Of a stretch of 64,000 bases of DNA, positions 54,285 to 57,079 are shown in pieces (the stretch's first letter is position 1; every line of letters begins with the position of its first letter). The DNA lies in NCBI RefSeq assembly GCF_011045215.1, contig NZ_CP049201.1, one strand, 5' to 3'. Origin of the DNA: Escherichia coli (GTDB taxonomy: Bacteria > Pseudomonadota > Gammaproteobacteria > Enterobacterales > Enterobacteriaceae). The notes under the pieces were generated by a model that had not been told where the DNA came from, made no database searches, and was given only the letters and a program-made list of their open reading frames with translations. Position numbers and translations under genes: made by a program.

Positions 54285-54310
54285 AACCGGGCTTATTTGC
54301 TGCATCTGCA

Positions 54311-54404
54311 GCCAGCCAATGTTTCAGCAGTCTGAGAGAAACGCCTTCGGGTGACTGCCAGCCAACGTTTCACCGGCCTGAGAGAAACACCTTCGGGTGG
54401 CCGG
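54311..54404 (+). ncRNA. Tandem (2 x 46 nt) hairpin/pseudoknot element with compensatory stem changes; a STAXI-motif-like leader
   Basis: Unit 1 stem GCAGTC(54327-32)/GACTGC(54353-58). Unit 2 stem CCGGCC(54373-78)/GGCCGG(54399-404). The loop TGAGAGAAAC(G/A)CCTTCGGGT is conserved and contains a C(G/A)CC-UUCG-GGUG mini-hairpin. GTTTC 5' of each stem can pair with GAAAC in the loop to form a pseudoknot. Confidence 0.5.
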
Positions 54405-54567
54405 AATATCCTCGTAGCCTGAAAGAGGATGCCTGTGGGCGGTACATCCGTTTAACCTCTGGAAACGGATATCACTGTTCAGTGATTGAGGTCTTTTTAC
54501 TTCTCAGACAGCCGGAATTCAGCTGATCCGGCATCCCCGACGGGAACATTCACTTCCGTCAGGGATG

Positions 54568-55160: not shown

Positions 55161-55364
55161 ATGCAACAGCCAAATGGCATGCTGGCCGCACAGGCCGGCT
55201 ATACGTTACCCCTTCAGGTTCTCCGCAGCGTACGTGGTTATTATATTGGTACTCAGTGTGATGAGGGACCGGTGTCCCGCGAATCCGTGGAGTATTACAG
55301 AGACCATGAGCAGGCGGCACAGGCGCTGGAAAGCGGCACCTGGACGCAGCGGACGTGTGCGTGA
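55161..55364 (+). CDS. Hypothetical small protein
   Basis: 67 aa from the ATG at 55161 (SD AAGGAAA): MQQPNGMLAAQAGYTLPLQVLRSVRGYYIGTQCDEGPVSRESVEYY.... Confidence 0.5.
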   Translation: MQQPNGMLAAQAGYTLPLQVLRSVRGYYIGTQCDEGPVSRESVEYYRDHEQAAQALESGTWTQRTCA

Positions 55365-55379
55365 GGATGAGGAGGCTAT

Positions 55380-55913
55380 ATGGCATCACGCGGTATTAAT
55401 AAGGTGATACTGATAGGACATCTTGGACAGGATCCGGAGATTCGTTATCTTCCCAATGGCGGAGCCGTGGCGAACCTGACCCTGGCCACCAGTGAATCCT
55501 GGCGTGATAAACAGAGCGGTGAAATGAAGGAGCAGACCGAGTGGCACCGCGTGGTGATTTTCGGAAAACTGGCGGAGATAGCCGGTGAATACCTGCGTAA
55601 GGGTTCACAGGTGTACATCGAGGGCCAGTTAAAGACCCGGAAGTGGTTCGATCAGCAGAATGGTGTTGATCGCTACGCAACGGAAGTGGTGGTGAGTGTC
55701 AACGGCACCCTGCAGATGCTGGGCTCTCCGCGCCAGCAGGCCAGTGGTGCCGCACCCGTACACAGCGGTCAGGGAACTGCCGGTGCGCCGGCGGGTAACT
55801 CACCGTCACCGGCTTCCGGGAACGGCGGGGGAATGCCGATGGATTTTGACGACGACATTCCCTTCAGTGGACCGGGATATGGCGCTGAACGGCGGATTAT
55901 CCATGCCATGTAA
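55380..55913 (+). CDS. ssb: Single-stranded DNA-binding protein with a 15-aa extension beyond the canonical DDDIPF tip
   Basis: OB fold [44 protein letters not shown], a Gly/Pro/Ala-rich linker, then MDFDDDIPF followed by [15 protein letters not shown]. Confidence 0.9.
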
Positions 55914-55923
55914 TGTTAACCCC

Positions 55924-55947
55924 GGGGGCATCACTGCCCCCATTTTT
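55924..55947 (+). terminator. Rho-independent terminator after ssb
   Basis: GGGGGCA-tcac-TGCCCCC followed by ATTTTT. Confidence 0.7.
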
Positions 55948-55961
55948 ACCAAGGAGGTATC

Positions 55962-56894
55962 GTGAGTGAAAAAAATCATACCACCCCCACGCCACACGAT
56001 GCGGCGTTCAGGGCGATGATGGAAACCCCTTCGGTTGCAAGGGATTTTCTGGAGGCTGCGTTGCCGCCGGCACAGTTACAGCGGTGCGATATGAACACCC
56101 TGAAGCTGGAGCCGGCCACGTTTGTGGATCCGGATTTGCGTCAGTATGCCAGTGACGTTCTGTGGAGCATGAAAACCACCGACGGGCGTGATGGTTACAT
56201 CTACGCGCTGACGGAACATCAGAGCTCTGCGGATCGTTTTATGGCCCTGCGCATGATGCATTATGTGCTGGCGATAATGTATCGTCACCTGAAAACGCAT
56301 AATCAGGCCCCCGTTGTGATCCCGGTGCTTTTTTATCACGGTGAACCCAGTCCGTATCCGTACAGCCTGAACTGGCTGGACTGTCTGGACGATCCGGCGC
56401 TTGGTCGTGAGCTTTACGGCGAAGGAAAGCCGCCCCGCGTCATTGATGTGGGTCTTCTTGATGATGAGGGTATCCGTCACTATCAGCAGATGGCGGCCCT
56501 GATGCTTCTGATGAAGGTCCGTCAGCGGAAGGGCGATCTGATGACGCAGCTTGACTTTCTGTCACAGTTGCTTCAGATACAGGGAACACACGATCAGGTG
56601 GTGGTTCTGTTAAACTATATGGTGAAGGCGTGCGATTCGGCTTCACCGGAATTTATACGGGTGATGGCAGAACATCTGCCCCGGTATGAGGATGATATTA
56701 TGACTATCGCTGAACGACTTGAACTGGCGGGTATCGAAAAAGGTATCGAAAAAGGCCGTCAGGAAGAGAGAGAAAAGGCGCTTGAGAAGACGCTTGAGGC
56801 TGCCCGTCGGATGCAGAAGATGGGGATGTCGCCTGAGAGTATTCAGGAGATCCTGCAGCTTTCTGATGACGAGCTGCGGAAAGCGCTCGGTTAA
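55962..56894 (+). CDS. Rpn-family recombination-promoting nuclease / putative transposase (YhgA-like, PD-(D/E)XK)
   Basis: 310 aa with a GTG start after SD AGGAGG. The N-terminus TPTPHDAAFRAMMETPSVARDFLEAALP and D..LW..K..DG..YIYALTEHQS are typical Rpn/Transposase_31 motifs. Confidence 0.85.
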   Translation: MSEKNHTTPTPHDAAFRAMMETPSVARDFLEAALPPAQLQRCDMNTLKLEPATFVDPDLRQYASDVLWSMKTTDGRDGYIYALTEHQSSADRFMALRMMHYVLAIMYRHLKTHNQAPVVIPVLFYHGEPSPYPYSLNWLDCLDDPALGRELYGEGKPPRVIDVGLLDDEGIRHYQQMAALMLLMKVRQRKGDLMTQLDFLSQLLQIQGTHDQVVVLLNYMVKACDSASPEFIRVMAEHLPRYEDDIMTIAERLELAGIEKGIEKGRQEEREKALEKTLEAARRMQKMGMSPESIQEILQLSDDELRKALG

Positions 56895-56963: not shown

Positions 56964-56993
56964 ACGCCAGCTTTTACGCTGGCGTTTTTTTTG
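56964..56993 (+). terminator. Rho-independent terminator after rpn
   Basis: ACGCCAGC-ttttac-GCTGGCGT followed by TTTTTTTT. Confidence 0.75.
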
Positions 56994-57079
56994 TTTACTG
57001 ATAATGAGTTGTTCGTTGAGCCTGCCGGCGCTTCTTTGCACAGTGACCGCTGTTTTATCACTGCAGAGGAGTTATCCGG

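What the first reader, a model, noticed from the sequence alone, without database searches (positions are those of the whole stretch)
55962..56894. Rpn (YhgA-like) nuclease inserted between ssb and the pilL transfer operon; candidate intragenic antitoxin start
A 310-aa Rpn-family PD-(D/E)XK protein sits between two strong terminators (55924-47 and 56964-93), in a slot that I recall holds no such gene in related islands. It therefore looks like cargo.

E. coli Rpn proteins have been reported to promote RecA-independent recombination. More recently they were reported to act as toxic anti-phage proteins that are neutralised by a small protein (RpnS) translated from an internal start in the same frame.

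Here an internal ATG at 56700 (Met247) is preceded by GAGGA at 7-nt spacing. It would give a 64-aa helical product, MTIAERLELAGIEKGIEKGRQEEREKALEK.... Another in-frame ATG lies at 56664.

A nuclease next to the ICE ssb and transfer genes could serve defence, addiction or recombination functions.
Basis: partly seen in the sequence, partly recalled or inferred. Interest (0 to 1): 0.5.

Follow-up and report, generated by a model that had tools for sequence, protein, structure and literature searches.

The report
ICE-borne Rpn nuclease with internal antitoxin
This gene on a conjugative element encodes a DNA-cutting Rpn toxin and, very probably, a small antitoxin read from an internal start in the same frame; this two-in-one design is already known from E. 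coli, so it is a new example and not a new kind of system.

Summary
A 310-aa ORF (55962-56894, GTG start) is a bona fide Rpn/YhgA-like PD-(D/E)XK protein. It lies between ssb and pilL of a PFGI-1/SPI-7-class ICE and is bracketed by terminator-like hairpins.

Met247 (ATG 56700) aligns exactly with RpnA Met244, the experimentally validated internal start, which is also residue 1 of the RpnA-S crystal structure 7TH0. The Met-Thr-Ile-Ala motif is invariant down to 48% identity. A purine-rich Shine-Dalgarno block is kept upstream in every clade even though the encoded residues differ.

Just after it lie two 12-nt tandem repeats. Their copy number varies among near-identical orthologues in steps of exactly four residues (298/302/306/310 aa), which is the published RpnS hallmark.

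The "cargo" reading is half right. All inspected E. coli and Salmonella relatives carry an rpn in this slot, in four allele classes. One replacement is confined to the ORF, and two loci have extra stand-alone RpnS copies. Eighteen related ICEs in other genera carry no rpn there: twelve carry DUF29, and the two others inspected carry or retain part of a DUF4160/DUF2442 pair.

Verdict: a new member of the known RpnL/RpnS toxin-antitoxin kind in a variable ICE cargo slot. Translation of RpnS, toxicity and anti-phage activity are inferred, not shown.

The parts
55924..55947 (+). Hairpin plus T-run directly after the ssb stop codon (55911-55913), ending about 4 nt before the rpn SD. It is terminator-like and leaves no room for a separate rpnL promoter.
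   Evidence: 7-bp stem, 6 GC, loop of 4, ATTTTTACC. One search shows a hairpin plus T-run at the same place in all eight ICE loci compared, with different stem sequences. In one search the hairpin forms in the MFE fold.
55951..55957 (+). Shine-Dalgarno AAGGAGG for the full-length protein (RpnL). It lies 4 nt before the GTG start.
   Evidence: -12.0 kcal/mol against the anti-SD. The start codon is GTG in 7 of 8 lineages compared.
55962..56894 (+). rpnL: the full-length 310-aa Rpn/YhgA-like protein, the predicted toxic DNA endonuclease.
   Evidence: RefSeq annotates orthologues as 'Rpn family recombination-promoting nuclease/putative transposase'. dN/dS of the N-terminal domain is 0.19-0.29.
55989..56591 (+). 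Transposase_31 / PD-(D/E)XK nuclease domain (residues 10-210). The catalytic-equivalent codons are D13 (55998-56000), D65 (56154-56156), E85 (56214-56216), Q87 (56220-22) and R97 (56250-52).
56608..56616 (+). Candidate internal extended -10 promoter (TGtTAAACT) that could drive a short rpnS transcript. The evidence is weak.
   Evidence: The same position in K-12 rpnA/B/E carries a strong ATGACA-17-TTTAAT, 87 nt upstream of the internal ATG. L030 has GTGAAA-18-TAAACT with TG. In the window the -35 is poor. PMC10400941 reports internal TSSs in all five K-12 rpn genes. In L003 a stand-alone rpnS copy that follows a terminator keeps only about 100 nt upstream of its ATG.
56688..56692 (+). Internal Shine-Dalgarno GAGGA, 7 nt before ATG 56700.
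   Evidence: A purine-rich block at -13..-7 is kept in 12 rpn genes of at least 7 clades, although the encoded residues differ (YEDDI, HKGVI, HKESL, EKEKL, QKERL, GGESM, HEDKL).
56700..56894 (+). rpnS: the in-frame 64-aa product from Met247, the predicted antitoxin and oligomerisation domain. It is shared with the C-terminus of RpnL.
   Evidence: It aligns with RpnA M244, which is the first residue of 7TH0. M-T-I-A is invariant in 18 sequences. A profile hits 7TH0 at E=6e-9. The AF2 model has three helices (3-40, 45-52, 56-63) at pLDDT 82. The Foldseek top hit is 7TH0, but with E=0.66.
56730..56755 (+). Dodecamer tandem repeat GGTATCGAAAAA x2.2, encoding (G-I-E-K)2. It is the hypervariable four-residue repeat in helix 1 of RpnS.
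   Evidence: The copy number is 0, 1, 2 or 3 among orthologues that are more than 92% identical.
56772..56798 (+). Second dodecamer repeat (GAAAAGGCGCTT / GAGAAGACGCTT), encoding EKAL-EKTL. It also varies in copy number.
   Evidence: One unit is missing in P0001, P0003, L001 and L006.
56964..56993 (+). Strong intrinsic terminator (8-bp stem, then T8) that ends the rpn transcription unit, upstream of the conserved pilL leader.
   Evidence: z = -4.6 for the 3' flank. It is conserved in all lineages and is duplicated together with the rpnS copies in L003 and L004.

Best explanation
The gene is an RpnL/RpnS 'gene-within-a-gene' toxin-antitoxin module carried in a variable cargo slot of a PFGI-1/SPI-7-class integrative conjugative element.

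**Toxin.** The full-length product (RpnL, 310 aa) is a Mg-dependent DNA endonuclease with little sequence specificity and a PD-(D/E)XK fold. It is toxic if unopposed.

**Antitoxin.** Ribosomes also initiate at ATG 56700 (Met247), using the GAGGA at 56688-92. They probably do so on a shorter transcript from an internal promoter. The result is a 64-aa three-helix protein (RpnS) identical to the C-terminus of RpnL. RpnS pairs with that C-terminal helix of RpnL through its long first helix and blocks cleavage.

**Specificity.** The number of four-residue repeats in that helix (two 12-nt tandem arrays) sets which RpnS fits which RpnL. This number changes rapidly between strains.

**Expression of the toxin.** RpnL synthesis is kept low by a GTG start. 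The only transcription entering the gene has to read through the hairpin and T-run after ssb, so toxin production is tied to the ICE ssb operon.

**Most likely biological role.** Either abortive-infection-type anti-phage defence that benefits the ICE's host, or post-segregational stabilisation of the ICE, or both.

**Shown here:**
- family membership
- conservation of the catalytic residues
- homology of Met247 to a validated internal start
- SD conservation
- repeat polymorphism
- variability of the slot

**Inferred from the characterised E. coli homologues:**
- separate translation of RpnS
- toxicity and its neutralisation
- dependence on terminator read-through
- defence
For: **Family and active site**
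- D13, D65, E85, Q87 and R97 are invariant in 38 homologues. They match the RpnA residues required for recombination, toxicity and SOS induction (PMC5350276).
- The N-terminal domain is under purifying selection, with dN/dS 0.19-0.29.

**Internal start**
- M247 aligns with RpnA M244. The K240R/E241D/M244L mutations abolished RpnA-S (PMC10400941), and the crystallised RpnA-S chain 7TH0 starts at that Met.
- The M-T-I-A motif is invariant.
- The SD lies in the top 0.7-15% of in-frame positions in 12 genes. The combined p is about 7e-8, but this is indicative only, because the sequences are homologous.

**Repeats**
- Full-length members of three 90%-identity clusters have lengths 298/302/306/310, 314/322 and 306/314/318/322/326.
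- The repeats begin 10-11 residues after M247, inside the 8-20 range reported in PMC10400941.

**RpnS fold and family**
- A profile reaches 7TH0 at E=6e-9.
- The AF2 model has three helices.
- 7TH0 is the top Foldseek hit.

**Stand-alone copies**
- Stand-alone rpnS-like copies lie downstream of rpn in L003 (82 aa) and L004 (117 aa), with a different repeat number. They mirror ypaA/rpnESs in K-12.

**Low RpnL expression**
- A conserved hairpin with T-run lies about 4 nt before the SD, and the start codon is GTG.
- No sigma70-like site was found on the + strand between 55451 and 56928.
Against: - No expression, toxicity or phage data exist for this allele.
- In the window alone the internal SD is only moderate (-6.1 kcal/mol). 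It is weaker than in K-12 rpnA-E (-8.5 to -10.8), and an in-frame ATG at 56541 scores equally well.
- The candidate internal promoter has a poor -35.
- phmmer with the 64-aa product alone does not reach 7TH0. The Foldseek E-value to 7TH0 is 0.66.
- PADLOC v2 has no matching defence model.
- The protein is only 37-44% identical to the characterised K-12 paralogues, so its properties could differ.
- The M-T-I-A motif could be conserved for structural reasons in RpnL alone.
Confidence: 0.8

Rival explanations
1. The gene makes a single product. It encodes only the full-length nuclease. Met247 and the purine-rich codons before it are conserved because the residues matter for the C-terminal helix of that protein. 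No separate small protein is made from this allele.
For: - The SD in this allele is moderate and not unique within the gene.
- No convincing internal promoter was found.
- There is no expression evidence.
Against: - The purine block is kept at the same distance from the ATG while the encoded residues change completely between clades: YEDDI, HKGVI, HKESL, GGESM. That points to selection on the RNA and not on the protein.
- All five K-12 paralogues and a C. difficile homologue make the short protein (PMC10400941).
- Stand-alone copies beginning shortly upstream of this Met exist in sister ICEs.
Confidence: 0.08
2. The gene is a transfer or establishment function of the conjugative element and not a host-defence or addiction module. 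RpnL would be made by read-through from the ssb operon only when the ICE is active or has just entered a recipient. There it would cut DNA to promote RecA-independent recombination or integration, or to attack resident competitors. RpnS would merely limit the damage.
For: - The gene is transcriptionally downstream of ssb, with no room for its own promoter.
- A STAXI motif sits upstream of the same operon in every lineage.
- The closest non-ICE relatives (57% identity) lie in the leading region of IncI-complex plasmids, between ardA/psiAB/ssb and nikA.
- Rpn proteins raise RecA-independent recombination in conjugal crosses (PMC5350276).
- TA genes are enriched in leading regions (PMC11541004).
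Against: - Eighteen related ICEs in other genera do without it and carry unrelated small genes in the slot, so it is not needed for transfer.
- In IncF plasmids rpn sits next to parAB/umuDC, not in the leading region.
- The oriT and the direction of entry of this ICE were not determined.
- Repeat hypervariability and allele replacement fit an arms race better than a housekeeping role.
Confidence: 0.1
3. The gene is a transposase or insertion sequence, as some annotations say ('putative transposase', 'ISNCY family transposase'). It inserted itself between ssb and pilL.
For: - The best NCBIfam hit by score is a model named 'ISNCY family transposase' (252 bits).
- The Pfam name is Transposase_31.
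- The gene is patchily distributed.
Against: - That NCBIfam score is far below the cutoff of 583.
- There are no terminal inverted repeats or target-site duplications around the ORF.
- The L005/L030 replacement is bounded by the start codon and about 15-20 nt after the stop, inside conserved flanks, which indicates homologous exchange.
- There is only one copy in the 64-kb window.
- PMC10400941 found no evidence of autonomous transposition in the family.
Confidence: 0.02

Closest known systems
E. coli K-12 RpnA (YhgA) with its intragenic antitoxin RpnA-S (Zhong et al. 2023, PMC10400941; PDB 7TH0)
   Same: - It has the same two-domain layout.
- D/E/Q catalytic residues are at equivalent positions.
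- The internal Met is at the equivalent position, preceded by an SD.
- The short product starts MTIAERL and is predicted to have three helices.
   Different: - It is only 44% identical overall and about 37% in the short product.
- It fails the RpnA equivalog cutoff, 230 against 583 bits.
- The short product is longer (64 aa against 49) because of the repeats.
- The SD is weaker, GAGGA against AAGGAG.
- It is ICE-borne and sits behind ssb, and is not a stand-alone chromosomal gene.
E. coli RpnC (YadD), the paralogue with KGIE repeats
   Same: It has the same repeat unit (G-I-E-K / K-G-I-E) at the same place in helix 1. PMC10400941 showed for RpnC that adding one KGIE unit switches antitoxin specificity.
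   Different: It is only 37% identical overall. The window allele also has a second variable repeat (EKAL/EKTL).
Plasmid-borne Rpn of IncI-complex plasmids (cluster P0012; possibly the class of RpnP2, the only Rpn shown to protect against phage)
   Same: - It is the closest relative outside the ICE clade, at 57% identity.
- It has the same MTIAERLEQKG(R/I)... repeat architecture.
- It too is on a conjugative element, close to ssb.
   Different: - It sits in a plasmid leading region near ardA/psiAB and not in an ICE.
- Its precomputed C-terminal domain hit (PF27070) is absent from the ICE clade's entries.
Other toxin-antitoxin or abortive-infection cargo of conjugative elements (for example TA genes enriched in leading regions, PMC11541004)
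   Same: It is a small, self-contained toxic module carried as exchangeable cargo next to ssb.
   Different: The antitoxin is encoded inside the toxin gene in the same frame, and not as a neighbouring gene.

Membership tests
Rpn / YhgA-like (Pfam PF04754, NCBIfam TIGR01784) | The Transposase_31 domain and the Rpn family model score above their curated thresholds. | tested here: met
   PF04754 scores 207.8 bits against a cutoff of 21. TIGR01784 scores 119.5 bits against 52.1.
Rpn / YhgA-like (Pfam PF04754, NCBIfam TIGR01784) | The PD-(D/E)XK-type active-site residues required in RpnA (D11, D63, E82, Q84) are present. | tested here: met
   D13, D65, E85 and Q87 are invariant in alignments A3 and A4. 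The requirement comes from PMC5350276.
Rpn / YhgA-like (Pfam PF04754, NCBIfam TIGR01784) | The N-terminal domain has a restriction-endonuclease-like fold. | tested here: inconclusive
Rpn / YhgA-like (Pfam PF04754, NCBIfam TIGR01784) | The protein has Mg-dependent DNA endonuclease activity and causes toxicity or SOS induction. | not testable with these tools
   This needs purified protein or in vivo expression.
Orthologue of a named K-12 paralogue (RpnA-E) | The score reaches an equivalog model cutoff. | tested here: not met
   NF007361 (RpnA) scores 229.7 and NF007418 scores 252.2, against cutoffs of 583. Identity to RpnA/B/C/E is 37-44%. It is a separate subfamily.
RpnL/RpnS gene-within-gene toxin-antitoxin (Zhong et al. 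2023) | An in-frame internal start codon is homologous to the validated iTIS and is preceded by a ribosome-binding site. | tested here: met
   M247 aligns with RpnA M244, which is residue 1 of 7TH0. GAGGA lies 7 nt upstream. The SD is conserved in 12 genes.
RpnL/RpnS gene-within-gene toxin-antitoxin (Zhong et al. 2023) | A four-residue repeat begins 8-20 residues after the internal Met, and its copy number varies among strains. | tested here: met
   (GIEK)2 starts at residue 11 of the short product and is encoded by a perfect 12-nt tandem repeat. Orthologue lengths step by 4 aa.
RpnL/RpnS gene-within-gene toxin-antitoxin (Zhong et al. 2023) | The short product belongs to the RpnS three-helix family. 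| tested here: met
   A profile without K-12 sequences reaches 7TH0 at E=6e-9 over its full length. AF2 predicts three helices. 7TH0 is the first Foldseek hit, although its E-value of 0.66 is not significant alone.
RpnL/RpnS gene-within-gene toxin-antitoxin (Zhong et al. 2023) | An internal promoter or TSS gives a short transcript. | tested here: inconclusive
   There is only a weak extended -10 candidate at 56608-16, at the position of a strong predicted promoter in rpnA/B/E.
RpnL/RpnS gene-within-gene toxin-antitoxin (Zhong et al. 2023) | RpnS is translated separately, binds RpnL, neutralises its toxicity, and the system protects against phage. | not testable with these tools
   These are experimental features; see the decisive next steps.
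Insertion sequence / transposase | The unit has terminal inverted repeats, target-site duplication and defined mobile ends. | tested here: not met
   No flanking repeats were found. The allele replacement is limited to the ORF within conserved flanks.
Core (backbone) gene of the PFGI-1/SPI-7-class ICE | The gene is present at the same position in all related elements. | tested here: not met
   It is present in all E. coli and Salmonella lineages inspected. It is absent from 18 of 20 loci found in other genomes. Twelve of those carry DUF29, and the two others inspected carry or retain part of a DUF4160/DUF2442 pair.

The most novel reading that the evidence does not exclude
The ssb-pilL junction of this ICE family may be a dedicated, recombination-exchangeable cassette site. 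Its occupant (rpnLS here) would be transcribed only by read-through from the STAXI-preceded early ssb operon. The nuclease would then be released during ICE activation or just after entry into a new cell. This would parallel the closest plasmid relatives, which sit in IncI leading regions. The Rpn would act in element establishment or inter-element conflict, and not as a constitutive host anti-phage system.
Probability: 0.12. Interest if true: 0.6.

Novelty: new member of a known kind. Interest (0 to 1): 0.3.

Why it matters
The gene adds an ICE-borne subfamily to the RpnL/RpnS intragenic toxin-antitoxin systems. More usefully, it supplies a natural allelic series in one fixed genomic slot.

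- **Repeat series.** Repeat numbers of 0-3 (and up to five extra units in a sister clade) occur in otherwise near-identical proteins.
- **Allele classes.** There are four deeply diverged classes, including a replacement confined to the ORF between ICEs that are 98-100% identical in their flanks.
- **Stand-alone copies.** Some elements have independent duplications that create stand-alone RpnS genes.

This is convenient material for asking what drives the repeat variation, what triggers RpnL release, and whether conjugative elements use Rpn for host defence, for their own maintenance, or during transfer. It does not change the known picture of how Rpn systems are built.

Tried and rejected
- **PDB by sequence.** phmmer of the full protein and of the 64-aa product against the PDB found no RpnA-S. 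Only a profile did.
- **PADLOC.** It has no Rpn model. The only hit was a 'putative invertase' model on the C-terminus.
- **Pfam on the short product.** It gave no meaningful family. PF14261/DUF4351, named in PMC10400941 for stand-alone RpnS, did not match. PF27070, seen in precomputed hits of plasmid relatives, did not match P0012 when it was scanned against the Pfam copy used here, so it could not be tested on this protein.
- **Distant blastn.** A 'spread' listing of a distant blastn was swamped by chromosomal and plasmid ssb genes and was useless for slot occupancy. The megablast spread listing worked.
- **ATG 56664 (Met235) as an alternative start.** Rejected: the SD is weak and the Met is not conserved.
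- **ATG 56541 (Met194).** It has an equally good SD, but the Met is not conserved.
- **Consensus promoter scan.** It found no site inside the gene on the + strand. The PWM scan gave only a weak candidate.
- **Literature.** Searches for Rpn combined with ICE, pilL or leading region found no paper describing this association. A search for STAXI returned only psychology papers.
- **Leading-region link.** The idea that plasmid rpn genes are generally leading-region genes was checked. It holds for two IncI-complex plasmids but not for two IncF plasmids.
Full report
**What is in the sequence**

The ORF 55962-56894 (+) starts with GTG, 4 nt after AAGGAGG, and encodes 310 aa. It matches Pfam PF04754 (YhgA-like, E=1.7e-61, residues 10-210) and passes the NCBIfam Rpn family model TIGR01784. 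It falls far below the equivalog cutoffs for RpnA and for NF007418.

The ssb stop codon (55911-13) is followed after about 10 nt by a GC hairpin and T-run (55924-47). A stronger hairpin with T8 follows the gene at 56964-93. ATG 56700 is codon 247, GAGGA lies 7 nt upstream, and ATG 56664 is in frame.

**Context**

The closest annotated genomes identify the element as a PFGI-1/SPI-7-class ICE. The gene order is topoisomerase III, STY4534-family replication protein, a 67-aa ORF, ssb, rpn, pilL2 and the TIGR037xx transfer genes. RefSeq already annotates the orthologues as 'Rpn family recombination-promoting nuclease/putative transposase'.

**Is Met247 an internal start?**

Within this one sequence the case is only moderate. 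The SD pairs at -6.1 kcal/mol and ranks third of 30 in-frame start codons. An ATG at 56541 scores the same. The comparative evidence is strong:

- **Homology to a validated start.** In an alignment with K-12 RpnA, B, C and E, Met247 falls on RpnA Met244. Zhong et al. abolished RpnA-S with K240R/E241D/M244L (PMC10400941). The crystallised RpnA-S chain (7TH0) is the 49 aa beginning at that Met.
- **Invariant motif.** M-T-I-A is invariant in 18 sequences down to 48% identity, and the Met is at least 90% conserved in 38 sequences.
- **SD kept at the nucleotide level.** In 12 rpn genes from the ICE clades, K-12, and IncI and IncF plasmids, a purine-rich block sits at -13..-7. The residues it encodes differ (YEDDI, HKGVI, HKESL, EKEKL, QKERL, GGESM, HEDKL). 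In each gene the site is in the top 0.7-15% of in-frame positions for anti-SD pairing.
- **Family of the short product.** A profile of the short products from ICE and plasmid genes only reaches 7TH0 at E=6e-9 over its whole length. AlphaFold2 predicts a long helix and two short ones. 7TH0 is the top Foldseek hit, although that E-value (0.66) means little for so small a protein.

Met235 (56664) has a weak SD and is not conserved, so I reject it.

**The repeat hallmark**

Residues 11-18 of the short product are (GIEK)2, encoded by a perfect 12-nt tandem repeat at 56730-55. A second, imperfect dodecamer pair at 56772-98 encodes EKAL-EKTL.

Among orthologues more than 92% identical, the GIEK unit occurs 0, 1, 2 or 3 times, and the second unit once or twice. 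Full-length members of three 90%-identity clusters have these lengths:

| Cluster | Lengths of full-length members (aa) |
|---|---|
| 1 | 298, 302, 306, 310 |
| 2 | 314, 322 |
| 3 | 306, 314, 318, 322, 326 |

This is exactly the variation described for RpnS. That variation begins 8-20 residues after the internal Met, and for RpnC adding one KGIE unit switches antitoxin specificity.

**The nuclease half**

D13, D65, E85, Q87 and R97 are invariant. They correspond to RpnA D11, D63, E82, Q84 and R94, whose mutation abolishes or alters activity. The N-terminal domain has dN/dS of 0.19-0.29, similar to pilL. The gene is therefore maintained, not decaying.

**Cargo or backbone?**

The picture differs between the nearest relatives and the wider family.

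- **E. coli.** 109 of 5,426 complete genomes match the region. Every row that spans the junction lists an Rpn gene. All five diverged lineages I opened have rpn directly after ssb, as does a Salmonella locus.
- **Allele classes.** The alleles fall into four classes, at about 95%, 80%, 62% and 48% identity to the window protein. The flanking STY4534 protein stays 84-100% identical.
- **An ORF-confined swap.** L005 and L030 are 98-100% identical on both sides but only 44-76% identical across the rpn ORF. The breakpoints lie at the start codon and about 15-20 nt after the stop, which makes this a clean allele replacement.
- **Stand-alone copies.** L003 and L004 carry an extra stand-alone copy of the C-terminal part (82 and 117 aa) with its own terminator and a different repeat number. 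This resembles ypaA downstream of rpnE.
- **Other genera.** A scan of one genome per species with the STY4534 protein found 20 loci. The 18 from other genera (Kluyvera, Pantoea, Erwinia, Enterobacter, Mixta, Leclercia and others) have no rpn. Twelve of them carry a DUF29 gene in the slot. Of the other six, I inspected two: L013 carries a DUF4160/DUF2442 pair, and L025 retains the DUF2442 gene.

The slot is therefore a variable cargo site, and in the E. coli and Salmonella branch rpnLS is its regular, fast-changing occupant. No inverted repeats or target duplications flank the ORF, so it is not an insertion sequence.

**How it most likely works**

By homology, RpnL is a toxic endonuclease with little sequence specificity. 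RpnS, made from ATG 56700, binds the identical helix in RpnL and inhibits it. The repeat number sets partner specificity.

Two local features suggest that RpnL is kept scarce. The start codon is GTG in 7 of 8 lineages. A conserved hairpin with T-run ends about 4 nt before the SD, which leaves no room for a promoter, so rpnL must be transcribed by read-through from the ssb operon.

An internal promoter for rpnS is expected from the K-12 data. Here I find only a weak extended -10 candidate (TGtTAAACT, 56608-16), at the position of a strong predicted promoter in rpnA/B/E.

The biological role is not resolved by sequence. It could be anti-phage abortive defence, as shown for plasmid RpnP2, or stabilisation of the ICE, or both.

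**A lead not proven**

The nearest relatives outside the ICE clade (57% identity) lie in the leading region of two IncI-complex plasmids, between ardA/psiAB/ssb and nikA. In two IncF plasmids, however, rpn sits beside parAB/umuDC. Rpn homologues occur on 4,630 of 72,556 plasmids, about two-thirds of them conjugative.

Together with the STAXI motif upstream of the ssb operon, this keeps open a role during transfer or establishment. The 18 rpn-free ICEs show that it is not required for transfer.

**Comparison and verdict**

This is a new member, in a separate subfamily, of the known RpnL/RpnS gene-within-gene toxin-antitoxin kind. The family and the internal-antitoxin principle were published in 2023 and described there as broadly conserved. 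I found no paper on the ICE slot.

Interest is modest. The value lies in the natural allelic series at one fixed locus.

Noticed in passing
window 54298-54448 (+): There is a full-length match to the STAXI RNA motif (Rfam RF01728, 135 bits) between topoisomerase III and the STY4534-family gene. It is conserved on the same strand upstream of the STY4534-ssb operon in every ICE lineage checked, with or without rpn, and occurs as two tandem copies in L004, L005 and L030. It is absent from the IncI leading regions. From my own knowledge, the motif was named for its association with ssb, topoisomerase, antirestriction and integrase genes, and may act as single-stranded DNA.
   Followed up: partly
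L009 8202-8639; L023 8415-8846; L013 8133-8375 and 8323-8607; L025 8365-8613: In related ICEs of other Enterobacterales, the ssb-pilL slot holds a DUF29 protein (PF01724) in 12 of 18 loci. Of the other six, L013 holds a DUF4160 plus DUF2442 pair and L025 retains the DUF2442 gene. The site therefore collects small, exchangeable modules of unknown or TA-like function.
   Followed up: partly
L005 3950-4950 vs L030 2940-3950: Two E. coli ICEs are 98-100% identical in ssb, STY4534 and pilL but carry rpn alleles only 44-76% identical at the nucleotide level. The breakpoints lie at the start codon and about 15-20 nt after the stop, so the replacement is confined to the ORF.
   Followed up: yes
L003 4098-4346; L004 7495-7848: Stand-alone duplicates of the rpn C-terminal part (82 and 117 aa) lie downstream of the full gene. 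Each has a different repeat number from its upstream gene and a duplicated terminator. One is annotated 'RpnC/YadD family protein'. They are analogous to ypaA after rpnE in K-12.
   Followed up: partly
L032 9010-9900; L035 8992-9894: In two IncI-complex plasmids, the closest non-ICE Rpn (57% identity) sits in the leading region, between ardA/psiA/psiB/ssb and nikA-nikB. In two IncF plasmids (L033, L034) rpn is instead next to parAB and umuDC.
   Followed up: partly
L006 (NZ_JBQPOM010000022.1): A contig labelled Vagococcus sp. (a Gram-positive genus) carries this enterobacterial ICE region with a 100% identical STY4534 protein. This is probably contamination or mislabelling, or a very recent transfer.
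   Followed up: no
window 56994-57079: The leader between the rpn terminator and pilL (AATGAGTTGTTC.TTGAGCC...TTTATCAC...CTGCAGAGG) is conserved across ICE lineages that are otherwise about 75-80% identical. It is probably the regulatory region of the pilL transfer operon.
   Followed up: no
window 55161-55364 (+): A 67-aa ORF lies between the STY4534-family gene and ssb and has no Pfam match. It is present in the rpn-bearing lineages and absent from the DUF29 and DUF4160 lineages, where ssb follows STY4534 after about 60 nt.
   Followed up: no
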